A DNA stretch of 35,706 nucleotides from a virus (taxonomy: Duplodnaviria > Heunggongvirae > Uroviricota > Caudoviricetes): positions 1 through 35,706 of the IMG/VR virus record IMGVR_UViG_2698536570_000003; one strand, 5' to 3'. This document shows positions 16,173 to 24,952 of this stretch, piece after piece; position 1 is the first letter of the stretch, and each line of letters starts with the position of its first letter. The position numbers were made by a program, and so were the translations under genes. The notes below the pieces were generated by a model, which saw nothing but the letters and a program-made list of their open reading frames with translations, made no database searches and had not been told where the DNA came from.

Positions 16173-16227
16173 CCTGACCCTTCATCACTAAAGGCCGCCT
16201 GTGCGGCTTTTTTTACGGGATTTTTTT

Positions 16228-17160
16228 ATGTCGATGTACACAACCGCCCAGCTGCTGGCGGCAAATGAGCAGAAATTTAAGTTTGATCCGCTGTTTCTGC
16301 GTCTCTTTTTCCGTGAGAGCTATCCCTTCACTACGGAGAAAGTCTATCTCTCACAAATTCCGGGACTGGTAAACATGGCGCTGTACGTTTCGCCGATTGT
16401 TTCCGGTGAGGTTATCCGTTCCCGTGGCGGCTCCACCTCTGAATTTACGCCGGGATATGTCAAACCCAAGCATGAGGTGAATCCGCAGATGACCCTGCGT
16501 CGCCTGCCGGATGAAGATCCACAGAATCTGGCGGACCCGGCTTACCGCCGCCGTCGCATCATCATGCAGAACATGCGAGACGAAGAGCTGGCCATTGCTC
16601 AGGTCGAAGAGATGCAGGCAGTTTCTGCCGTGCTCAAGGGCAAATACACCATGACCGGTGAAGCCTTCGATCCGGTTGAGGTGGATATGGGCCGCAGTGA
16701 AGCGAATAACATCACACAGTCTGGCGTCACGGAGTGGAGCAAGCGTGACAAGTCCACGTATGACCCGACCGACGATATCGAAGCCTACGCGCTGAACGCC
16801 AGCGGCGTGGTGAATATCATCGTGTTTGACCCGAAAGGCTGGGCGCTGTTCCGTTCCTTCAAAGCCGTCAGGGAGAAGCTGGATACCCGTCGCGGCTCTC
16901 ATTCCGAACTGGAGACAGCGGTAAAAGACCTGGGCAAAGCGGTGTCTTATAAGGGAATGTATGGCGATGTGGCCATCGTCGTGTATTCCGGACAGTACGT
17001 GGAAAACGGCGTCAAAAAGAACTTCCTGCCGGACAACACGATGGTGCTGGGTAACACTCATGCACGCGGTCTGCGCACCTATGGCTGTATTCAGGATGCG
17101 GATGCATTGAGTGAGGGTATTAATGCGTCTCCCCGTTATCCGAAAAACTGGAAGACATGA
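16228..17160 (+). pseudogene. E: major capsid protein gpE, N-terminal 312 codons, interrupted; stop codon TGA supplied by the first bases of the insertion
   Basis: MSMYTTAQLLAANEQKFKFDPLF... matches lambda E up to ...PRYPKNWKT, then stop; the missing 29-codon C-terminus is at 24857-24952. Confidence 0.88.
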
Positions 17161-17202
17161 TCCACCGCGCGATAAATAAGCCGCAATCCGTGAGATAAAT
17201 GG
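17158..17202. repeat. left terminal region of insertion (TGATCC..., GATAAATA at 17171, CCGTGAGATAAATGG at 17188)
   Basis: Motifs mirror the right end in reverse complement. Confidence 0.6.
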
Positions 17203-17218
17203 ACACGGTGCGGCTTTT
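17180..17218 (+). terminator. hairpin plus T-run just inside left end of insertion
   Basis: GCCGCAATCCGTG...CACGGTGCGGC followed by TTTT; would stop read-through from E. Confidence 0.4.
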
Positions 17219-17245
17219 CAGATACTGCAAAGGAATTACAAATTA

Positions 17246-19723
17246 TCAGTCGTAAGCAACCCGGCGCTTACGGGCAAGAATAGCTTCCAGCGCTCTTTCA
17301 ATCTCAGGAATGGACAGCTTAAGCGCATTCGCTACATCCGGTGCTGGTGACTTGTTCTTGCCATCAATATAGATATGGTTAATGACGTTAATCCCTGCAC
17401 CTGCCGGTGAATGTGAATCCCGGCCTCTGGATAAGGTAAGGTCGCCGCGCATATAGCGCTCTAATACGGGTGGTACTTTCGGTACATCCGGCACCATCAT
17501 ATCAGCCAGCCGCGAGGAGGCTTTTAGCGCCAGCGATGCAGACTGACCGATACCAATCGCCGCCCCTTCTGCGATGTTTGAACCGAAGCCCATAAAGACC
17601 CGGCTTGGCGAGTGAATCCCCAGCTTTTCCTTGAACCACCCGCCGACGCTATCGCCCATCTCGGTAACGGTATTCTTGAGCGACTCCCACTTATTTTTGA
17701 TACCGTTCACCAGTCCGTCAATCAGGTGACCGCCAAACTCGGTAAACTGGCCGGGAAGGTCGATGTTAAACCACTTCATGACCCCCGCAAACGCCTTGTA
17801 GAACAGCCCCAGCGGCGACCAGTTCAGGATTAGCTTACTGACGCCGAGAACGCCGCCGTTAAAGGCCGTTTTGACTTCCTCCCATCGCTGTGAGAACCAT
17901 CGACTTATTGCCCCCCAGTTGCGGTATATCAGGTATGCGCCCCCGGCGATGACGGTTATCGCAATGCCTAAGGGATTCATCATCAGCGCCCGGCCAAACC
18001 AGAGAAATGCTTTTGCAACGACCATGACGCCCCTGAACAGCCCACCTGCCAGCGCTTTACCCAGCGTCCCGGCTCCCTTCGCTACGGTACTGAATCCAGT
18101 AGCCAGCCAGCGCAACCTGCCACCAACACCAAGTGCGGCTTTCAGCTTCACCCAATGAGTGTGTACCAGAACAGCGTTTTTCCACATCCCAACAAAAGGT
18201 GAAAAAAGCAGATTAAGGCCGAGCTTCAGACCGACAGTGGCAATTTTCAGCCCCAGCAGTGCGCCCACGGTTTTTGCCACACCCTGAACAAGCGTCGGAT
18301 GTTGCTCTATCCAGAGCTTCGTTGTCTGAATCATCGGGATTAATTGCCGGGTTGCTGACACAAATGTAGGGGACAACTGATCGCCGAGAGAGATAGATAA
18401 ATCACGGGTGTTTATCATCAGGGCTTTGGTTGCTTCCAGCGGCGATTTGAGCCTTTCAGCATAGGATGCCGCCAGCAGGTCATTATCAGCCGCTTTAAGT
18501 GCACCAGAGCGGATTGCCCTGTATTTATCCATGTTAGCAAGCATAGGGCGAACGAACGCCATTACCTGCATATCGGTGAACATCTCACCCAGCCCAAAGT
18601 TTTTAGCCAGACTTTGTAAGGCCTCGTCCCGCGCTTTGTTGTCCTGAATTTGCATTGCGGATTTAAAACCAGCCAGAGCTTTCGGACTCGTTGCATTAAG
18701 GTATCTTTGGGTTACATCCAGCATACCTTCAATGGGGGAAACTCCGGCTGCTTTATAATTCGCAAGAGACCCCATCAGGTCGATACCTAAATCGGCAAAT
18801 CGCTTCTGCGTATCAGGCGCAAAAATCTTGGTGAGGAAGTTCCTGAAATTGTTTGCAGTCTCATCCGGTGAACCTGAACCAATCATAGCGACCTGCAAAC
18901 TGGCCCCAATCTCCGCCACTGCATCCTTACCGTCTGCAATACCCTGCATCATCGGCGCAAGCGACTGAATCCATTTCACCTGGTCAGGGATTTCAAAAGA
19001 CCCCTGGTCACCTGCGTAGGCCATGATGTTCTGTACCGCGCCAAATTCTTTTGCGCTGCCTTTCAGCGAGTTTTGCCACACCGCCGCAACCTTTGCCCAT
19101 TCCGTTCCTGCGGTACGGGTTGCCGTGGCTGCACGGGCGATATTCGGCATGTAGTTGCCAATATCTGAAAGCCCGTCAATGTTATCGCTGATAAGTGAAC
19201 CAACGGCGTCCTGCATATCGCTCTGATACTGGTTGTATTTGAGCGACCACCCTTTGATTTGCTCTCCCAGAGTCTTACGGGTTTTATCGTCATATTTCGC
19301 TGTGATTGACATATCAATCATTTTATCTTCAAACGATGCCGACTGTTCTATAGCCGGGGACACAAGACTGTAAGCAGCCCTGACTTGTGCATACGCCTCT
19401 ACTCCCTGACCGTAGAGCGCCATGCGGTTAGATTTCAGGGCGTCAGAAGTGGCAGACGCTGCCGACAGGCGGGACTGCTGGCGGTTAAGCTGTTCCAGCG
19501 TTCTGCCGACCCGTTGCAGGTCATTGTTCAGGCGCGAGGCTACGCCCGAACCAACCTGACCGTAACGCTGCATGGCGCGTGACAGGCTGCTTTGCTGCTC
19601 CGTCAGTCGGCGTGAGGTGTCGCCGAGAGAATCCAGAGTACGCCGGGTACTGCTCATCGCGGAACGAAAACTGCTCCCGACAATGCCGCCAATCATCACG
19701 CCAACAGAAAAATTATTGCTCAT
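17246..19723 (-). CDS. tape-measure-like protein (825 aa)
   Basis: Long helical N-terminal part, Gly/Trp/Phe-rich hydrophobic middle, C-terminal GIHSPSRVF-type motif; no search run. Confidence 0.55.
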   Translation of the reverse strand: MSNNFSVGVMIGGIVGSSFRSAMSSTRRTLDSLGDTSRRLTEQQSSLSRAMQRYGQVGSGVASRLNNDLQRVGRTLEQLNRQQSRLSAASATSDALKSNRMALYGQGVEAYAQVRAAYSLVSPAIEQSASFEDKMIDMSITAKYDDKTRKTLGEQIKGWSLKYNQYQSDMQDAVGSLISDNIDGLSDIGNYMPNIARAATATRTAGTEWAKVAAVWQNSLKGSAKEFGAVQNIMAYAGDQGSFEIPDQVKWIQSLAPMMQGIADGKDAVAEIGASLQVAMIGSGSPDETANNFRNFLTKIFAPDTQKRFADLGIDLMGSLANYKAAGVSPIEGMLDVTQRYLNATSPKALAGFKSAMQIQDNKARDEALQSLAKNFGLGEMFTDMQVMAFVRPMLANMDKYRAIRSGALKAADNDLLAASYAERLKSPLEATKALMINTRDLSISLGDQLSPTFVSATRQLIPMIQTTKLWIEQHPTLVQGVAKTVGALLGLKIATVGLKLGLNLLFSPFVGMWKNAVLVHTHWVKLKAALGVGGRLRWLATGFSTVAKGAGTLGKALAGGLFRGVMVVAKAFLWFGRALMMNPLGIAITVIAGGAYLIYRNWGAISRWFSQRWEEVKTAFNGGVLGVSKLILNWSPLGLFYKAFAGVMKWFNIDLPGQFTEFGGHLIDGLVNGIKNKWESLKNTVTEMGDSVGGWFKEKLGIHSPSRVFMGFGSNIAEGAAIGIGQSASLALKASSRLADMMVPDVPKVPPVLERYMRGDLTLSRGRDSHSPAGAGINVINHIYIDGKNKSPAPDVANALKLSIPEIERALEAILARKRRVAYD

Positions 19724-19755
19724 GGTTCACTCCGGTAATGAGTGGTTCGGTGGCG

Positions 19756-20349
19756 TCATTCGGTCAGGGACAGGCCGCTGATTCCGGTAATCCCGGCAAT
19801 TTCCTCGCTGACAGCCATCAGTTCACTTTCAAGCCCGGTACGTTCGCTGACCAGCGCCGCAACGGTCTTACGGCGTTCTGCCAGTGACGGAAGTTTGTCA
19901 TTGCCCCACACCACGCTTTTATCCTTCTTAAGCGCTTCGGTCAGGCGGGTGGCGACCACATCCGGGAAGAAAAAGCAGAGCTTGCGCATAACCGCCATCC
20001 CGGTATCAGCCGGGGAGATGTTTCCACCCAACCCCACCAGACGGAACAGGCCGGAAATATCGCCGCTCTCATTCTCCAGATTGCCCCAGCGTTCGGCGTT
20101 CCCTTCACTGCCGGAACTGTTGCAGAGGACACGCTTGAATGACTGATATTCTTCCTGCCCGAATCGCTCAATATATTCAGGAATGAAAGAACAGTAATCA
20201 TTAAGCGATAAAGGCATATCCTGTAATGTGGTTATTTCGCCGTTAATTTCACTAATGCGGCGAGAGAGTTTTTCTTTCTGCTCATTCAGGGAGGCAAGAT
20301 TATTTTTAACGGCGTTCAGTGCTTCGATAAGGGAAATAACTGGTTTCAT
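19756..20349 (-). CDS. hypothetical protein with N-terminal coiled coil (197 aa); chaperone or scaffold candidate
   Basis: ORF in track, directly upstream of the tape-measure-like gene. Confidence 0.4.
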   Translation of the reverse strand: MKPVISLIEALNAVKNNLASLNEQKEKLSRRISEINGEITTLQDMPLSLNDYCSFIPEYIERFGQEEYQSFKRVLCNSSGSEGNAERWGNLENESGDISGLFRLVGLGGNISPADTGMAVMRKLCFFFPDVVATRLTEALKKDKSVVWGNDKLPSLAERRKTVAALVSERTGLESELMAVSEEIAGITGISGLSLTE

Positions 20350-20350
20350 T

Positions 20351-20965
20351 TTAATAACTCCAGATAAAAGGCGTGGTGAGTGTGAGTGCTTCGGAATAGG
20401 AGACGTTACAGGCTTCGCTTACATCCTTTATTAAAAGGTGCTGCGCTGCTCTCTGGCTGTCAGCTATGCCGTCGAACTCTGAGAAATAAACGTGTGATTC
20501 ATTGTGACCAAAACAGACCGGGTAAGCGCTTTCCATAAATTCCACCTGCTCCAGCCCTTTAACGGCTGGCGGCTGTGAGCCGAGAAAACCGATATGGCGT
20601 AGATACCAAGCTCCGGTGCCTGCCGGGTTGCTGGCCTCGCCGGGCTTATAGAATGACGCAGATACTTTCCTGTAACGCCCTGAGCGCACCAGCCCCAGCA
20701 GGGTATCATCCGGTTTTACCAGTGCGAAAAGCCTGCCGTTCTTGCTTATCAGTCCGGTGGTTTCGCCATAGGCCGGGCTGTTACTGGCCGGATGCCCCAG
20801 ACACAGCGGCGCACCGTAACCCGCGCTGCGATAGCCGTTATAGGCCGCTGCCATGTTGTCGATATCCTCGTCGGAAAAGCTGATTTCCTGTCCCGCCATC
20901 GCGGTATGCGTTCCCGCCCGGAATATCTCAATCGTTTTCCAGTTGCCCAAATTAAGATTTGTCAT
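20351..20965 (-). CDS. hypothetical protein (204 aa), tentatively Mu gpI-like protease-domain
   Basis: Motifs RSGRYRKVSASFY and LRHIGFLGSQPPAVKGL resemble my recollection of Mu-I family proteins; recall is uncertain. Confidence 0.35.
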   Translation of the reverse strand: MTNLNLGNWKTIEIFRAGTHTAMAGQEISFSDEDIDNMAAAYNGYRSAGYGAPLCLGHPASNSPAYGETTGLISKNGRLFALVKPDDTLLGLVRSGRYRKVSASFYKPGEASNPAGTGAWYLRHIGFLGSQPPAVKGLEQVEFMESAYPVCFGHNESHVYFSEFDGIADSQRAAQHLLIKDVSEACNVSYSEALTLTTPFIWSY

Positions 20966-21007
20966 TTACCTGTTCTCGGTTGTGATGTGTAAACAGTGCT
21001 TTGCTGC

Positions 21008-21382
21008 TTAGTGTCTGGCAGCGCTATCTTTCAGGCTGTTTCTGTATTCACGGCGTTTTTGGGCGATAATGTTGTAAATCCATTGCAGGGAATAGCCGTA
21101 TTTTTTCGCTATTTCAGCGATGGGAATACCTTCATTAAAGTCTGCAAAAACCAGATCATATTTCTCTTCATTCTGGTCTTTTGTTCCTTTTGGGAAGTAA
21201 AGGTTAAGCCCGCCGTATACATCTGACAGATACGCCATGATGTCTACAGCGATAGATTCAGACTGACGTTTATCGACACCGTACATGACAAGGCGGCAGG
21301 AAATGTGCGTAGCCATATCACTAAGCACTTCGGCAGATTGACGCATTTTTTGTTTGTTGGTCATGACTATCACCCGTTGCAA
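21008..21382 (-). CDS. Mor-family transcriptional activator-like protein (124 aa)
   Basis: C-terminal half (YGGLNLYFPKG...FADFNEGIPIAEIAKKYGYSLQWIYNIIAQKRR) aligns by eye with Mu Mor HTH region. Confidence 0.55.
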   Translation of the reverse strand: MQRVIVMTNKQKMRQSAEVLSDMATHISCRLVMYGVDKRQSESIAVDIMAYLSDVYGGLNLYFPKGTKDQNEEKYDLVFADFNEGIPIAEIAKKYGYSLQWIYNIIAQKRREYRNSLKDSAARH

Positions 21383-21603
21383 TATCAGTAATTCAGTCAG
21401 AAAAGGCTTTATAAAGCTTTACAGCGTGCGACTGGCGGTAAAGGCGAACCTTGACCGCAGCAAACCAGCCTGACGGCTTAGAAAGCGTTACAGCACCTTG
21501 TTAAAGTCAGTTAATAATATCGGGTGTGGGCGGGGATGTTTTTTAATGTACTTTAGATATGAAGAAGCCCCTCAGAGGAGGGGCTTCGCGGGATTACGCC
21601 AGA

Positions 21604-21894
21604 TTATTGAGGCCGTCTGTCTTTCCTCAATCCATCAAGTAGCGCCATTGCATCAGTAACCAGTATGCCAGCAGCATCCGTAACCATAGAAACATCAGAG
21701 GATGCACATGATTTATCCGTACCTAATGTAGACGCAAAATCAAGTAGCTTACGAACTGCATCAAGTCGGTAGGTGGCAGAGTCGTAAATTAACTCCTGAT
21801 TAGCATCAGTCTTTAAAAACATAATATCATCAGAGGCACCTTGTGAAAATGACGGCATCGCACGGAAAGTATTTTGAGTTTCAGCCTGTTTCAT
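21604..21894 (-). CDS. hypothetical protein (96 aa)
   Basis: ORF in operon context, overlaps neighbour by 4 nt. Confidence 0.35.
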   Translation of the reverse strand: MKQAETQNTFRAMPSFSQGASDDIMFLKTDANQELIYDSATYRLDAVRKLLDFASTLGTDKSCASSDVSMVTDAAGILVTDAMALLDGLRKDRRPQ

Positions 21895-22652
21895 TGTGCA
21901 GCCCTCCGGCTAATAGCGAATTTATTATAAACTTCATAACTGGCAGCATTCAGTCCGGGGTTGTATTTATCAGCCAGAGCACAGGCAATCATATGTTCAA
22001 TAAATTTTGTTATTGCGTTAAGTTCGGTTTCGTCTGAATAACGCAATGCCACTTTGAGTAACTCGCGGCAATATTGCTTTTTATTCTCTTCGATTTGGCC
22101 TGATTGTTTTATTCCTGCCTTTTTATCTAACTCGTCCTCAACAGGCAAAGATGAGATATCCTCTTTATTGGTTAGCGTTCTTTCGCAAATAATATCTTCA
22201 CCAGATTGAATTACGCGCTGCAACTCTCTGGCGCTCATGCGAAGAATATCATCAAGCGTGTGGTCGTTATATGCCCCACCACTGGCAAGGAGATCCAGTG
22301 TCACTTCATCCAGCCGGGCAAGCAGATTTAACTTCGTTTTGCCGATATCTGTTTTGGCAATTGCGGCTCGTGGTGTGTCACCGCCGAACACATGAGCGAT
22401 TCGCATCGCTTTACGTGCATCGGGCAAGTTTATGCGCCATCTGTGAAGAAAGTTCGTAAACTCACCATGTTGCAGTTCCTCTTTACAGGCAAATATTTTC
22501 TTTCCCAAAGAAACCAAGCCTTCGGCCTCCGATGTCGTTTTAGCGTGAGAACTGTGAATCACGCCACTGACCACCGCAGATAAAACACTTTCTTGGTTTG
22601 TTCCAAATGAATCGTTAGACTTATCATTAGCCATGACTGTTATCCTACGCAT
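21891..22652 (-). CDS. hypothetical protein (253 aa, start uncertain), first gene of leftward operon
   Basis: ORF in track; translationally coupled to the 96-aa ORF. Confidence 0.4.
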   Translation of the reverse strand: MRRITVMANDKSNDSFGTNQESVLSAVVSGVIHSSHAKTTSEAEGLVSLGKKIFACKEELQHGEFTNFLHRWRINLPDARKAMRIAHVFGGDTPRAAIAKTDIGKTKLNLLARLDEVTLDLLASGGAYNDHTLDDILRMSARELQRVIQSGEDIICERTLTNKEDISSLPVEDELDKKAGIKQSGQIEENKKQYCRELLKVALRYSDETELNAITKFIEHMIACALADKYNPGLNAASYEVYNKFAISRRAAQ

Positions 22653-22772
22653 AACGGTTTACTGGTTAGGCCATAGCAAGTGCTCGCAACATTTGTTATG
22701 GCCGTTTCTCTAGACCTTTCCCTGTGTTAAGGTATAGACCTAATAAGCAAACACTAAGCTATAGGTCTATAC

Positions 22773-22964
22773 ATGTCAACTATCTTGCGAGATAAAAGCC
22801 CTAAAGGGGCAGGTAAAGCCCCGATGTTCAATGTCAGGATTTCACCAGAACTGAAAGAACAGTTTGAATCACAAGCAAAAAAAGAAGGTGTTAGCTTAGG
22901 GAATTGGCTCAAAGAGCTTGGGAGAGCAGAGCTTAAGCGCAACGGAATTGACCCGAAGGCTTAA
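22773..22964 (+). CDS. Arc/Mnt-like ribbon-helix-helix DNA-binding protein (63 aa)
   Basis: PMFNVRISPELKEQFESQAKKEGVSLGNWLKE fits the RHH pattern of P22 Arc; divergent from the leftward operon. Confidence 0.5.
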   Translation: MSTILRDKSPKGAGKAPMFNVRISPELKEQFESQAKKEGVSLGNWLKELGRAELKRNGIDPKA

Positions 22965-23000
22965 ATTTAGTTACTAAAAAACAATAGCTTAAGGTATTTT

Positions 23001-23086
23001 TGATAAATATTTATCACTTGTATTCGACATCATAGTGATAAATATTTATCATTCACAGCGCATCGGCACATGATAAAATGTTATCA
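23001..23086. promoter_or_regulatory. three 16-bp palindromic operator-like sites, 35 bp centre to centre
   Basis: TGATAAATATTTATCA at 23001-23016 and 23036-23051 (identical, perfect palindromes); TGATAAAATGTTATCA at 23071-23086. Confidence 0.6.
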
Positions 23087-23101
23087 CTTTGAGGCTAGTT
23101 T

Positions 23102-23446
23102 ATGCGTATACATGTTACTCTTAATGGCAAAAAAACAACCATATCGATAGATGACTTGCTCTTCGACTATCTTGGTGCATGGTTGGTTGAACAAAGACCC
23201 AAACTGCACTCAAAACCTAAAGAGCAGTATGACCAAGCTAAGTCTCAGATTCGTAAATATGTGCAAGATAACGCAGAAAAACTCCCATCTAAGAACCTTA
23301 GCCAGCACATACAAAATGCCATTTTAGAAATAATTATGCCGAAAGAATTAAATGAAATTCTAGAGAAAAGAGGGCCAAGATATGAGAAGAAAAAGTTTGA
23401 TGTGACCACAATTTTCCCTGATTGGGAAAATTATCTGAGAAAGTAA
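23102..23446 (+). CDS. hypothetical protein (114 aa), possible DNA-binding/regulatory
   Basis: ORF in track with GAGG RBS, directly after the operator array. Confidence 0.45.
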   Translation: MRIHVTLNGKKTTISIDDLLFDYLGAWLVEQRPKLHSKPKEQYDQAKSQIRKYVQDNAEKLPSKNLSQHIQNAILEIIMPKELNEILEKRGPRYEKKKFDVTTIFPDWENYLRK

Positions 23447-23465
23447 TTAAATCAATGGATTGTAT

Positions 23466-23607
23466 ACCGCTCAGCGCTGAGCGGTTCTGTGGCTCTAGAT
23501 CTGCCAACGTTGGCAGATTTGCCAATACCGCATTTGATTGATGGTATCGAATCGCAAATGTCCCAGCGCTGGGAATCATCCCCAAAGGCGCAGACATCTG
23601 CGCCTTT
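23466..23607. repeat. cluster of four distinct palindromes/hairpins
   Basis: ACCGCTCAGCGCTGAGCGGT (23466-23485), ATCTGCCAACGTTGGCAGAT (23499-23518), TCCCAGCGCTGGGA (23561-23574), AAAGGCGCAGA-CA-TCTGCGCCTTT (23584-23607). Confidence 0.6.
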
Positions 23608-23734
23608 GAGAAGCACGGAACTAAAATCCGTTTCACTGTATGACTGTATGGTATGAGGCTTTCAGATGCTTACTGAGGCTTAAATAAGCTAATGAAGTTT
23701 GCATCATCTGTTCCAAGTTAGTACACTTATCCCT

Positions 23735-23766
23735 GTTAGTGGATGCGTGACGCGCTCTGGTTGAGG
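23735..23766. repeat. left arm of 32-bp perfect inverted repeat
   Basis: GTTAGTGGATGCGTGACGCGCTCTGGTTGAGG; exact reverse complement at 23925-23956. Confidence 0.8.
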
Positions 23767-23820
23767 CTCATTACCTTGAACAGAGATTCATCACCTTAAG
23801 CACCCAAAGAAAAAAGCCTG

Positions 23821-23870
23821 NNNNNNNNNNNNNNNNNNNNNNNNNNNNNNNNNNNNNNNNNNNNNNNNNN
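23821..23870. other. run of 50 N (assembly gap or masked sequence of unknown true length)
   Basis: Seen directly. Confidence 0.99.
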
Positions 23871-23924
23871 GCATGTGAAACGTGTTCAAGCCCTGGCTGG
23901 ATTACGGGTGGTGCCGCTCCAGTG

Positions 23925-23956
23925 CCTCAACCAGAGCGCGTCACGCATCCACTAAC
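23925..23956. repeat. right arm of 32-bp perfect inverted repeat
   Basis: CCTCAACCAGAGCGCGTCACGCATCCACTAAC. Confidence 0.8.
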
Positions 23957-24028
23957 AATGCAACACCGTTAACCAGGCAGTGGAAGGGCTTTAATGGTGA
24001 TGCCGCGCTCCTGTAGTGGAGCAAACGG

Positions 24029-24112
24029 ATGAAGGGATTTCTTCAAATCGCTGTCATCGCTCTTAAGGCAATTGTCGCCTTTATTGAGCTGATTCTGGCC
24101 TGCTTACCGTAA
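24029..24112 (+). CDS. candidate 27-aa hydrophobic peptide (MKGFLQIAVIALKAIVAFIELILACLP), type I toxin-like
   Basis: ATG with GGAG 8 nt upstream; single predicted TM helix; followed 20 nt later by a strong terminator. Confidence 0.3.
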   Translation: MKGFLQIAVIALKAIVAFIELILACLP

Positions 24113-24133
24113 GCAACCGGGAAACGTAAGTAA

Positions 24134-24166
24134 GGCCACCGGCTCACCCCCGGTGGCCTTTAACAT
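24134..24166 (+). terminator. intrinsic terminator
   Basis: GGCCACCGG-CTCACCC-CCGGTGGCC followed by TTTAACATTTT. Confidence 0.55.
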
Positions 24167-24365
24167 TTTAAGTCTGCCTCGCCGCTCTACCGGCCATTCA
24201 TTTTTGAAGCTGGCTGAGTGTTAAGGCTAAATTTAAGGTGGCACTGACGGCTTAAATTCCTGCGATATCCTGGCATGTCGTTATGATTAAAGCGCATTAG
24301 AAACAAATTTCATCGTTCTGATTAAACATGTTTACCTGACTATTCAAAGTAAGGTAAATCTCAAT

Positions 24366-24710
24366 ATGGCACGACCTCAGACGGTTAATCAGTTACCCGA
24401 CTCTATCAAGAAGAAACTGAATAAAAAGCTGACGGAAAGTTCATTCAGCGGCTACGTTCAGCTTACTGAGTGGTTAAACTCGTTGGGATACCCGGTTTCA
24501 AAATCATCAGTGCATCGCTATGCTGAACGTCGCCGCCTGTCACTTATAGCAGGGAGCGATACTCCCGGCGCAACAGCTAACATTGTGGATACGAAACTTC
24601 GCTGTCTGGAGCTTGCCTCGCTCTCTTTAAAAACGGACGAGAAGTTGTCAGCAGATGAAGTAAAAAAATATGCTGAAAATTTGATGGGGTGGCTTTACGA
24701 CCAGAAATAA
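24366..24710 (+). CDS. HTH-containing small protein (114 aa) near right end of insertion; regulator or terminase-small-subunit-like
   Basis: Segment YVQLTEWLNSLGYPVSKSSVHRYAERRR looks like a helix-turn-helix; ORF in track. Confidence 0.45.
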   Translation: MARPQTVNQLPDSIKKKLNKKLTESSFSGYVQLTEWLNSLGYPVSKSSVHRYAERRRLSLIAGSDTPGATANIVDTKLRCLELASLSLKTDEKLSADEVKKYAENLMGWLYDQK

Positions 24711-24809
24711 TTGACTGCGCGGGAGGCGTGCCCTCCCGTTACGTATATGGAAACTGTTTTACAAATTCCCATCCAACCTTTTCCAACATCTTCCCCCATA
24801 GTCCCACAA

Positions 24810-24850
24810 TTATCTCACGGATAACCCTGTATTTATCTCATGTCTAATCA
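24810..24850. repeat. right terminal region of insertion (reverse complement carries CCGTGAGATAA at +30 and CATGAGATAAATA at +8)
   Basis: Mirrors the left end. Confidence 0.6.
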
Positions 24851-24856
24851 AAGACA

Positions 24857-24952
24857 TCCGGCGATCCGGCGCGAGAGTTCACCATGATTCAGTCAGCACC
24901 GCTGATGCTGCTGGCTGATCCTGATGAGTTCGTGTCCGTTCAACTGGCGTAA
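24857..24952 (+). pseudogene. E: detached C-terminal 31 codons of major capsid gene E (SGDPAREFTMIQSAPLMLLADPDEFVSVQLA)
   Basis: Matches the lambda E C-terminus; in frame with the N-terminal fragment if 17158-24856 is removed. Confidence 0.85.

What the first reader, a model, noticed from the sequence alone, without database searches (positions are those of the whole stretch)
22653..23446. Arc/Mnt-like repressor module with three phased 16-bp palindromic operators
The 63-aa protein has a ribbon-helix-helix pattern. Immediately downstream lie TGATAAATATTTATCA (twice, identical) and TGATAAAATGTTATCA, spaced exactly 35 bp centre to centre (23001-23016, 23036-23051, 23071-23086), ending 16 bp before the RBS of the 114-aa gene. 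The regular spacing suggests cooperative binding of a dimeric repressor controlling the 114-aa gene, like an immunity switch.
Basis: seen in the sequence. Interest (0 to 1): 0.6.

Follow-up and report, generated by a model that had tools for sequence, protein, structure and literature searches.

The report
Self-regulated repressor with three operators
The three evenly spaced palindromes are real. They most likely belong to the downstream 114-aa gene, an uncharacterised small DNA-binding protein that sits where the immunity repressor sits in Mu-like transposable phages, and not to the upstream 63-aa ribbon-helix-helix protein.

Summary
TGATAAATATTTATCA (twice) and TGATAAAATGTTATCA lie at 23001-16, 23036-51 and 23071-86, exactly 35 bp apart: 3 matches against 0.05 expected by chance.

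The attribution to the 63-aa RHH protein does not hold. A 90%-identical RHH copy in ST131-type E. coli keeps its own inverted repeat (22732-72) but has no palindromes and no 114-aa gene.

In 19 further independent loci examined, every homologue of the 114-aa protein but one has 2-5 repeats directly upstream, 33-42 bp apart. These loci span Beta- and Gammaproteobacteria and lack the RHH gene. In ten loci scanned, the motif occurs nowhere else. The repeat sequence changes with the protein's N-terminal beta-hairpin: GATAA-N4-TTATC with MRIHVT, TTGCA-N6-TGCAA with MRYY.

The best sigma-70-like promoter of the 114-aa gene has its extended -10 (TGATAAAAT) inside site 3 and its -35 abutting site 2. 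The best reading is therefore an autoregulated repressor.

In two full Mu-like prophage early regions the family occupies the c-repressor position. It has no Pfam, NCBIfam, PHROG or PADLOC hit, and no match in PDB or BFVD for a pLDDT 95 model.

The module sits in a 7.7-kb transposase-less element with TG...CA ends and 6-bp target duplications, a candidate satellite of a transposable phage. No binding has been measured.

The parts
23001..23016 (.). Operator site 1 (distal), perfect 16-bp palindrome TGATAAATATTTATCA
   Evidence: The 14-bp core is unchanged in the 96%-identical copy L002.
23036..23051 (.). Operator site 2, perfect palindrome TGATAAATATTTATCA. It abuts the -35 of the main promoter, and its right half overlaps the -10-like TATCAT of an upstream promoter-like site.
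23071..23086 (.). Operator site 3 (proximal), TGATAAAATGTTATCA. Its left half is an extended -10 (TGnTAAAAT).
   Evidence: TGATAAAAT recurs in the proximal site of the homologous loci L004, L010 and L015.
23052..23079 (+). Sigma-70-like promoter of the 114-aa gene: -35 TTCACA (23052-57), 16-bp spacer, TG (23071-72), -10 TAAAAT (23074-79)
   Evidence: 10 of 12 consensus matches with TG before the -10. This is a consensus match only. The number of promoter-like sites in the region is not above the shuffle expectation.
23024..23052 (+). Second promoter-like site: TCGACA, 17-bp spacer, TATCAT, between sites 1 and 2
   Evidence: consensus match only.
23102..23446 (+). Gene for the 114-aa protein ('p114'), with SD GAGG at 23091-94. 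It is the proposed operator-binding autorepressor and belongs to an uncharacterised family.
   Evidence: family. AF2 model at pLDDT 94.8 with an N-terminal beta-hairpin followed by helices; repeat arrays upstream of homologues, covarying with the protein.
22773..22964 (+). Gene for the 63-aa ribbon-helix-helix protein (annotated 'HicB family antitoxin' in RefSeq). It is a separate regulator and probably not the binder of the palindromes.
   Evidence: It is present only in the enterobacterial copies.
22732..22772 (.). Inverted repeat GTATAGACCTA-N19-TAGGTCTATAC ending at the RHH63 start codon. It is the likely operator of RHH63 and lies in the divergent promoter region.
   Evidence: I5, 11-nt arms, 100% complementary. 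In L003 the arms are invariant while the spacer carries 3 changes.
21891..22652 (-). DUF3102-family gene, first gene of the divergent operon (followed by a 96-aa gene, Mor, a protease-like gene, a coiled-coil gene and a tape measure gene)
23466..23485 (.). 20-bp perfect palindrome ACCGCTCAGCGCTGAGCGGT, 20 nt after the p114 stop codon. It may end the p114 transcript and is the first of a series of such GC-rich palindromes.
17158..24850 (.). The mobile element that carries the module: ends 5'-TG...CA-3', a 6-bp target duplication (AAGACA here), and no transposase or integrase

Best explanation
The three palindromes are the operator array of the 114-aa protein encoded just downstream. The proposed mechanism is as follows. 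p114 binds each 16-bp palindrome as a symmetric dimer, with its variable N-terminal beta-hairpin as the probable base-reading element. Occupancy of site 3 (which contains the extended -10) and site 2 (which abuts the -35) blocks RNA polymerase, so p114 holds its own synthesis at a set level. Site 1 adds affinity or higher-order assembly. In related elements and in full Mu-like prophages, the same gene plus array faces the early operon across a divergent control region. The family is therefore most likely the immunity or maintenance repressor of this lineage of transposable phages and of their transposase-less derivatives. In the E. coli element the 63-aa RHH gene, with its own inverted repeat, lies between the array and the early operon and is a second, independent regulator. 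Shown here: the sites, the promoter overlap, co-inheritance, exclusivity of the motif, and protein-operator covariation. Inferred: binding itself, dimer stoichiometry, repression rather than activation, and the immunity role.
For: (1) Co-inheritance. Repeat arrays lie directly upstream of the p114 homologue in 18 of 19 further independent loci from Dechloromonas, Dactylopiibacterium, Paracidovorax, Herbaspirillum, Pseudomonas, Ralstonia and metagenomes. The exception is L028, where only loosely repeated GAATTCA-type motifs were seen by eye. RHH63 is absent from all of these loci. (2) Covariation. Homologues starting MR[IL]HVT..GKKTTIS have GATAA-N4-TTATC. MRISITLDGKATTIS has CGATA-N6-TATCG. 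MRIHVALPKPTTVS has CTATAAATAGTTAT. MRYYMTVHGRLTTIT has (T/G)ATACTTAAATAT. MRYYVKR, MRLYIRK and MRYYIRA have TTGCA-N6-TGCA(A). MRYYIRLN has ATTTGATT..GTGCAAT. (3) Exclusivity. In all ten loci scanned, the motif occurs only in the array upstream of the homologue, across 6-13 kb of related loci and the 35.7-kb window. (4) Regular spacing within each array, to within 1 bp: 35/35 here, 33-36 in close relatives, 38 in Pseudomonas and Herbaspirillum, 42 in L017. (5) Promoter overlap. The proximal site reads TGATAAAAT in L004, L010 and L015 as well. (6) Purifying selection. Between the window and the 96%-identical L002 there are 0 changes in the 42 core operator bp against 6 in the 38 spacer bp, p = 0.009. 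(7) A 46%-identical homologue (L008/L015) keeps the identical 16-mer and a near-identical N-terminal 27 residues, while its DUF3102 neighbour aligns only over 57 C-terminal residues. (8) Position. In L020 and L028 the homologue is divergent from an early operon that encodes a Mu-type transposase (phrog_310) and a MuB-like protein (phrog_296), with the repeats in between.
Confidence: 0.75

Rival explanations
1. One reading: the upstream 63-aa RHH protein binds the three palindromes, as dimers or tetramers, and represses the 114-aa gene.
For: RHH63 is a credible RHH DNA-binding protein. Its gene ends 36 bp before site 1, with no terminator between. RHH tetramers can read half-sites about 10 bp apart (general knowledge of Arc and Mnt).
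Against: ST131-type elements carry RHH63 at 90% protein identity with no palindromes. All non-enterobacterial p114 loci have arrays but no RHH63. RHH63 is co-inherited with a different inverted repeat at its own promoter.
Confidence: 0.07
2. The palindromes are bound by a host global regulator such as Fur, because TGATAA...TTATCA resembles a Fur box. This would tie the 114-aa gene to iron status.
For: The half-sites GATAA(T) and (A)TTATC are the Fur hexamer. Fur is conserved across proteobacteria (general knowledge).
Against: The hexamers are separated by 2 bp here, against 1 bp in the Fur 6-1-6 / 7-1-7 arrangement. The best match to the 19-bp consensus is 12 of 19, which 32% of composition-matched shuffles reach. 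Each site has 5-7 mismatches to TGATAATnATTATCA. Homologous loci in Pseudomonas, Ralstonia and Herbaspirillum carry unrelated motifs at the same place and spacing. A conserved host factor would not explain this.
Confidence: 0.03
3. Another protein of the element or of a helper phage binds the array: the DUF3102 protein, or a helper-encoded repressor of the same family. Alternatively, the array bound by p114 has an architectural role (transposition enhancer as in Mu, packaging site or centromere-like site) rather than, or in addition to, transcriptional control.
For: In most relatives the array lies between p114 and the DUF3102-led early operon. Mu's operators double as the transposition enhancer (general knowledge). 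The strict regular spacing recalls centromere arrays such as F sopC. A gp27 TerS-like gene lies downstream of p114 in the E. coli, L016 and Pseudomonas elements.
Against: In E. coli the array is adjacent to p114 and separated from DUF3102 by the RHH gene. DUF3102 diverges strongly where the operator 16-mer is identical. hhalign finds no shared domain between the p114 family and the transposase or DUF3102, so there is no Mu-like shared DNA-binding domain. The element ends are similar between E. coli and Pseudomonas elements although their operators differ.
Confidence: 0.12
4. The repeats act at the RNA level. In a read-through transcript from the RHH63 promoter, sites 1 and 2 pair into an 18-bp hairpin that attenuates or processes the message.
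For: The region folds to -32.1 kcal/mol with z = -4.7 against shuffles, through site 1: site 2 pairing.
Against: Any two copies of a palindrome are complementary by construction. In L002 the T-to-C change in site 2 breaks a pair without compensation. The arrays in Pseudomonas are direct repeats with non-palindromic centres. There is no credible Rfam hit: the only match in the array is mir-81 at 21 bits, E = 0.08.
Confidence: 0.03

Closest known systems
Phage Mu c repressor with operators O1-O3 (immunity region of transposable phages)
   Same: The gene is transcribed divergently from the early operon that encodes the transposase and MuB-like protein (seen in L020 and L028). Several operators lie in the intergenic region. 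The element has TG...CA ends and short target duplications.
   Different: There is no sequence or fold similarity. No member hits Mu-type HTH domains and there is no shared domain with the transposase. p114 is 114 aa, against 196 aa for Mu c (from memory). The operators are regularly spaced 16-bp palindromes. Target duplication is 6 bp here, against 5 bp in Mu (from memory).
Lambda CI/Cro with the tripartite operator OR1-OR3
   Same: Three similar palindromic sites overlap the promoter elements, and the repressor gene is adjacent and autoregulated.
   Different: The lambda sites are 17 bp long and 23-24 bp apart and are read by HTH dimers that touch each other (from memory). Here the sites are 33-42 bp apart, the protein is not an HTH by any profile, and no second divergent promoter lies inside the array in E. 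coli.
P22 Arc/Mnt and other MetJ/Arc ribbon-helix-helix repressors
   Same: The neighbouring 63-aa protein is of this kind. p114 also begins with beta-strand(s) followed by helices, and one family member scores RHH_4 at E = 0.016.
Master repressors of phage satellites (e.g. SaPI Stl)
   Same: A small repressor gene at a divergent control region of a helper-dependent element.
   Different: There is no homology. De-repression by a helper protein is untested. The host element here moves by transposition, not by an integrase.
Fur box (GATAATGATAATCATTATC)
   Same: It shares the GATAA/TTATC half-site letters.
   Different: The half-site spacing is wrong and the consensus score is no better than chance. 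The motif changes with the p114 sequence in other hosts.

Membership tests
Arc/Mnt-type RHH repressor-operator module (RHH63 + palindromes) | The protein has the ribbon-helix-helix fold | tested here: met
   RHH63 scores Pfam HicB (RHH part) at 27.3 bits against a cut-off of 21, with weaker Arc, RHH_1 and RHH_5 hits, and PHROG 'Arc-like repressor' at 1e-6. This is sequence-level evidence only.
Arc/Mnt-type RHH repressor-operator module (RHH63 + palindromes) | The operator is inherited together with its repressor | tested here: not met
   RHH63 at 90% identity occurs without the palindromes in L003 and 22 other E. coli genomes. The palindromes occur without RHH63 in all non-enterobacterial loci checked.
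HicAB toxin-antitoxin system (RefSeq name of RHH63) | An adjacent HicA toxin gene, and a HicB N-terminal toxin-binding domain | tested here: not met
   RHH63 matches only positions 20-48 of the 51-position HicB profile. Neither neighbour (p114, DUF3102) hits HicA or any toxin family.
MetJ/Arc RHH superfamily (for p114 itself) | An N-terminal strand plus two helices, detectable by profile or fold comparison | tested here: inconclusive
Mu c-type repressor family | Sequence homology to the Mu c / MuA N-terminal winged-HTH domain | tested here: not met
   No Pfam hit of that kind in any of 37 members. hhalign of the family against the cognate transposase gives probability 0.3%.
Mu c-type repressor family | The gene is divergent from the early (transposase) operon, with operators in between | tested here: met
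   L020 and L028 both show transposase (phrog_310) and MuB-like (phrog_296) genes on the opposite strand. L020 has 5 repeats in the intergenic region. L028 shows only loosely repeated GAATTCA-type motifs by eye.
Fur regulon site | Match to the 19-bp Fur consensus with 6-1-6 / 7-1-7 geometry | tested here: not met
   Best match 12 of 19, reached by 32% of shuffles. Each site has 5-7 mismatches to the 7-1-7 form. The half-sites are one base further apart.
Autoregulated repressor-operator module (p114 + array) | Operator sequence covaries with the protein across relatives and is confined to its promoter | tested here: met
   At least five motif classes track the N-terminal hairpin sequence. The motifs are found only upstream of the gene in ten loci.
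Autoregulated repressor-operator module (p114 + array) | Direct, sequence-specific binding, and repression of the promoter | not testable with these tools
   This needs EMSA or footprinting and reporter assays.

The most novel reading that the evidence does not exclude
p114 founds a new structural class of sequence-specific DNA-binding repressors: an N-terminal beta-hairpin reader with no relative among solved structures. This class would serve as the immunity repressor of a lineage of Mu-like transposable phages. It would also be carried by a previously undescribed family of transposase-less, transposable phage satellites in E. coli, Enterobacter, Pseudomonas, Ralstonia and Betaproteobacteria. 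These elements would borrow a helper's transposase and remodel its capsid and tail. In that case the regularly spaced operator array may also link the satellite to its helper's immunity.
Probability: 0.4. Interest if true: 0.75.

Novelty: new variant of a known kind. Interest (0 to 1): 0.55.

Why it matters
Repressor-operator switches are a well-known kind of system, so the logic is not new. The protein is new to annotation, however. About 50 clusters among billions of proteins have no family assignment and no structural relative. They nevertheless show a clean, testable recognition code: hairpin sequence against half-site sequence, across at least five specificity classes. That makes the family a compact system for studying how a new DNA-reading module evolves specificity, and a source of orthogonal repressor/operator pairs. 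It also corrects a RefSeq annotation ('HicB antitoxin' next to 'hypothetical protein'). Finally, it flags the carrier as a mobile, helper-dependent Mu-like element, which the literature searches run here did not find described.

Tried and rejected
1. RHH63 as the binder: rejected on co-inheritance.

2. Fur or another host factor: rejected by geometry, consensus score and covariation.

3. RNA hairpin or known RNA family: folding is strong only because palindrome copies pair with each other. There is no compensatory change and no meaningful Rfam hit.

4. A Mu-style DNA-binding domain shared between repressor and transposase, or with DUF3102: hhalign is negative.

5. p114 also binding the element ends. 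GATAAAT is enriched in the window (21 against 4.4 expected) and sits 14-20 bp from both ends. But Pseudomonas elements have similar ends and different operators, so the ends do not covary.

7. Sequence searches. The operator region and the p114 protein gave no match in the phage collection, nor did the L020 homologue. The p114 protein gave no match in the plasmid collection. Only 3 of 5426 complete E. coli genomes carry the module.

8. Literature. There was no hit for the 16-mer. Three searches found no paper describing transposable-phage satellites. DUF3102 appears only incidentally.

9. The exact two-palindrome pattern in the one-genome-per-species collection gave no hit. The first attempt to scan with the full 37-sequence alignment failed for lack of a conserved block.

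Full report
**1. The observation**

The sequence read shows TGATAAATATTTATCA at 23001-23016 and again at 23036-23051. TGATAAAATGTTATCA lies at 23071-23086. The start-to-start spacing is 35 bp twice.

The pattern TGATAA-N4-TTATCA with up to one mismatch occurs three times in the 35.7-kb window, all here. The expectation from shuffles is 0.05, and no shuffle reached three. Relaxing the pattern to GATAA-N4-TTATC with one mismatch adds only two scattered hits.

There is one small error. Site 3 ends 4 nt before the Shine-Dalgarno GAGG (23091-94) and 15 nt before the ATG at 23102, not 16 bp before the RBS. Also, 35 bp is about 3.3 helical turns, so the sites are evenly spaced but not on one face of the helix.

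**2. Where the window comes from and what carries the module**

The region is 100% identical to the chromosome of E. coli AW1.7. There it lies in a block of about 7.75 kb that interrupts the major capsid gene of a lambdoid prophage.

The same block interrupts glvBC in another E. coli (L002). It also sits between unrelated genes in Enterobacter roggenkampii (L006).

In every copy whose junctions are held, the block starts 5'-TGATCC and ends TAATCA-3'. Three insertions show both junctions on one locus, flanked by the 6-bp direct duplications AAGACA, GCCGAA and GTGGCT. A fourth duplication, TGCACC, is inferred from two separate contigs (L013, L014) of one IMG sample.

The genes are as follows.
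- On the minus strand: a DUF3102 protein, a 96-aa protein, a Mor-type activator, a Mu gpI-like protease N-domain (phrog_976), a 197-aa coiled-coil protein and an 825-aa tape measure protein.
- On the plus strand: the 63-aa RHH protein, the 114-aa protein, about 920 bp without a convincing ORF, and a Mu gp27 (small-terminase-like) protein.

There is no transposase or integrase. This looks like a non-autonomous Mu-like transposable element.

**3. The 63-aa protein**

It scores as ribbon-helix-helix: Pfam HicB at 27.3 bits against a cut-off of 21, with weaker Arc, RHH_1 and RHH_5 hits, and PHROG 'Arc-like repressor'.

It matches only the DNA-binding part of HicB. No HicA-like gene is adjacent, so the RefSeq name 'HicB family antitoxin' describes a domain, not a toxin-antitoxin system.

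An 11-nt perfect inverted repeat, GTATAGACCTA-N19-TAGGTCTATAC (22732-22772), ends at its start codon.

**4. Who owns the palindromes**

Twenty-three further E. coli genomes, mostly ST131-like, match only the first 358 nt of the query, that is up to the end of the RHH gene. In one of them (L003):
- the RHH protein is 90% identical;
- the arms of the 22732-72 repeat are unchanged while its spacer has three substitutions;
- there is no TGATAA palindrome and no 114-aa gene.

The RHH therefore travels with its own inverted repeat, not with the palindromes.

The 114-aa protein shows the opposite pattern. It belongs to a small family: 4 hits by word-indexed search, 42 representatives by full HMMER search of 1.84 billion proteins, and 51 clusters with a profile.

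A 44-49%-identical homologue sits on a GC-rich metagenomic contig with no RHH gene. Four sites lie just upstream of it, 33-34 bp apart: TTGATAAATATTTATCAA twice, TTGATAAAATGTTATCC and TTGATAAAATTTTATCAA (L004).

A second homologue (L008/L015) has TGATAAATATTTATCA, CGATAAATATTTATCA and TGATAAAATAATATCA at 33-34 bp spacing. Dechloromonas, Dactylopiibacterium, Paracidovorax and other contigs show the same arrangement.

tblastn finds RHH63 only in the enterobacterial copies.

**5. Covariation**

More distant family members have different repeats at the same place and with the same regularity.

| Locus | Source | N-terminus | Repeats | Spacing |
|---|---|---|---|---|
| L021 | P. aeruginosa | MRYYVKRGGGVTSIT | 3 x TTGCATATAAGTGCAA-like | 38 bp |
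| L022 | Pseudomonas sp. | MRYYVKR... | 3 x TTGCATTAGAGTGCA | 38 bp |
| L020 | Herbaspirillum | MRYYMTVHGRLTTIT | 5 x (T/G)ATACTTAAATAT(A/C)-type, alternating orientation | 38-39 bp |
| L025 | metagenome | MRYYIRLN... | 3 x ATTTGATTTAAGTGCAAT | 34 bp |
| L026 | Ralstonia | MRLYIRK... | ATTGCA-N6-TGCAAT | – |
| L027 | metagenome | MRYYIRA... | ATTGCA-N6-TGCAA | – |
| L017 | viral contig | MRIHVALPKPTTVS | CTATAAATAGTTAT | 42 bp |
| L011, L019 | Paracidovorax and metagenome | MRISITLDGKATTIS | CGATA-N6-TATCG | – |

The most divergent member checked (L028, N-terminus MPSIYIVRGGHRTTVS) showed only loosely repeated GAATTCA-type motifs by eye.

In each of ten loci scanned, the motif occurs only in the array upstream of the family gene and nowhere else in 6-13 kb of the related loci or in the 35.7-kb window.

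A conserved host factor cannot explain motifs that change with the protein. A Fur box is also excluded on its own terms:
- the best consensus match is 12 of 19, reached by 32% of shuffles;
- each site has 5-7 mismatches to the 7-1-7 form;
- the half-sites are one base further apart.

Between the window and the 96%-identical L002 there is no change in the 42 core operator bases, against six in the 38 spacer bases, p = 0.009.

**6. Promoter geometry**

The consensus scan gives two plus-strand sigma-70-like sites in the region, both inside the array.
- The better one has its -35 TTCACA at 23052-57, directly after site 2. Its extended -10, TG-n-TAAAAT, lies at 23071-79 inside site 3.
- The other has TCGACA at 23024-29 and TATCAT at 23047-52, overlapping site 2.

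The proximal site reads TGATAAAAT in L004, L010 and L015 as well. A protein bound to sites 2 and 3 would occlude RNA polymerase. These are consensus matches only.

**7. The protein**

Pfam, NCBIfam, PHROGs and PADLOC give nothing for p114. Among 37 members, one reaches RHH_4 at E = 0.016.

AlphaFold2 with the 37-sequence alignment gives a confident model (pLDDT 94.8). It has a beta-hairpin at residues 2-15 and helices at 18-28, 39-56, 66-78 and 81-90.

The hairpin is the part that differs between specificity classes. The 'NLSQ-VQ' helix is conserved across all classes. I therefore infer that the hairpin reads the bases; this is an inference only.

hhalign shows no shared domain with the cognate transposase, with DUF3102 or with RHH63.

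**8. What the family does**

L020 (Herbaspirillum) and L028 (a metagenomic contig) each carry a Mu-type transposase (phrog_310) and a MuB-like protein (phrog_296) on the opposite strand. In both, the family member is divergent from that early operon. L020 has five repeats in the intergenic region; L028 shows only the loose motifs noted above.

This is the position of the c repressor in Mu.

In the other loci the partner operon is DUF3102 - (Mor) - protease-like - coiled-coil - tape measure, without a transposase. A gp27-like gene is often downstream of p114. The family therefore serves both autonomous transposable phages and transposase-less derivatives.

I conclude that p114 is most likely the autoregulated immunity or maintenance repressor of this lineage, with confidence 0.75.

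In the E. coli element the RHH gene and its own operator lie between the array and the early operon. No p114 site lies near the early promoter. Only self-regulation is therefore visible here. A trans role, for example on a helper phage with the same operators, is possible but untested.

**9. Comparison with known systems**

In function and position the module resembles Mu c/O1-O3 and, more loosely, lambda CI/OR1-3 and the master repressors of satellites. By sequence and fold it belongs to none of these families (see the membership table).

**10. Limits**

All evidence for binding is comparative. The promoters are consensus matches. Only a monomer could be modelled. Other co-inherited proteins are unlikely binders but are not excluded. 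The Enterobacter copy has a +1 frameshift in p114 with intact operators; this could be decay or a sequencing error.

**11. Verdict**

It is wrong about the binder. The module is a new variant of a known kind, carried by a mobile element that is interesting in its own right.

Noticed in passing
window 17158-24850 (L001 14559-22312); also L002, L006, L013/L014: A 7.7-kb element with 5'-TG...CA-3' ends and 6-bp target duplications at four different insertion sites. Three (AAGACA, GCCGAA, GTGGCT) have both junctions on one locus; the fourth (TGCACC) is inferred from two contigs of one sample. It has no transposase or integrase, but encodes Mor, a Mu gpI-like protease domain, a coiled-coil (scaffold-like) protein, a tape measure protein and a gp27 TerS-like protein. 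The same architecture occurs in P. aeruginosa (L021), Pseudomonas sp. (L022), Ralstonia (L026) and metagenomes (L024, L025, L027). It looks like a helper-dependent satellite of a transposable phage. Three literature searches found no description of such elements.
   Followed up: partly
window 23447-24365 (L001 20848-21830); L003 9365-10215: The stretch of about 920 bp between p114 and gp27 has no convincing ORF. It starts with a run of loop-less GC-rich perfect palindromes with AGCGCT or AACGTT centres: ACCGCTCAGCGCTGAGCGGT, ATCTGCCAACGTTGGCAGAT, TCCCAGCGCTGGGA, and CAAAGGCGCAGA-CA-TCTGCGCCTTTG. The ST131-type copy (L003) has more than ten, many flanked by AAA...TTT like bidirectional terminators. 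Their function is unknown.
   Followed up: partly
window 23735-23768 and 23923-23956; N run 23822-23871: A long-range inverted repeat of about 33 bp (GTTAGTGGATGCGTGACGCGCTCTGGTTGAGGC and its complement) brackets a 50-N gap in the window. In the finished AW1.7 genome the gap is 111 bp and includes a terminator-like hairpin (AAAAAAGCCTGACCTCACCAGTCGGGCTTTTTTT).
   Followed up: partly
window 22669-22703 and 22627-22704 (minus strand): A 14-bp-stem hairpin, GGCCATAG...CTATGGCC, lies in the leader of the DUF3102 operon. The GGCCATAG motif recurs at the equivalent place in L004, L015, L016 and L023. There is a weak sub-threshold Rfam hit to R1162-like antisense RNA (32 bits against a gathering score of 55, E = 0.003).
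   Followed up: no
window 17171-17177, 17194-17200, 24831-24837: The heptamer GATAAAT, which is the operator half-site, is enriched in the window (21 against 4.4 expected). It sits at positions 14-20 from both element termini. Pseudomonas relatives have similar termini (..ATCTTTCTCAC..CA) but different operators. The termini therefore probably reflect transposase sites rather than p114 sites.
   Followed up: partly
L006 8001-8345 (Enterobacter roggenkampii copy): The p114 gene has an extra A in an A-run (ACAAAAATG against ACAAAATG). This splits it into 84-aa and 98-aa ORFs (P0002, P0003), while the three operators are intact.
   Followed up: no
window ~16201-17157 and ~24851-24950: The host lambdoid prophage's major capsid gene is split by the element, so that prophage should be unable to make capsids.
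   Followed up: no
L020 958-3496; L028 4332-7387: In the full Mu-like early regions the transposases align to phrog_310 only from profile position ~130 onward, so they seem to lack the N-terminal domain. In L020 a DUF3102-family gene (phrog_1748) lies immediately upstream of the transposase; in L028 the upstream 306-aa gene did not hit that family. The transposase-less elements checked by tblastn, including the E. coli one, keep a DUF3102-like gene. DUF3102 might therefore be a cis-needed DNA-binding partner of the transposase.
   Followed up: no
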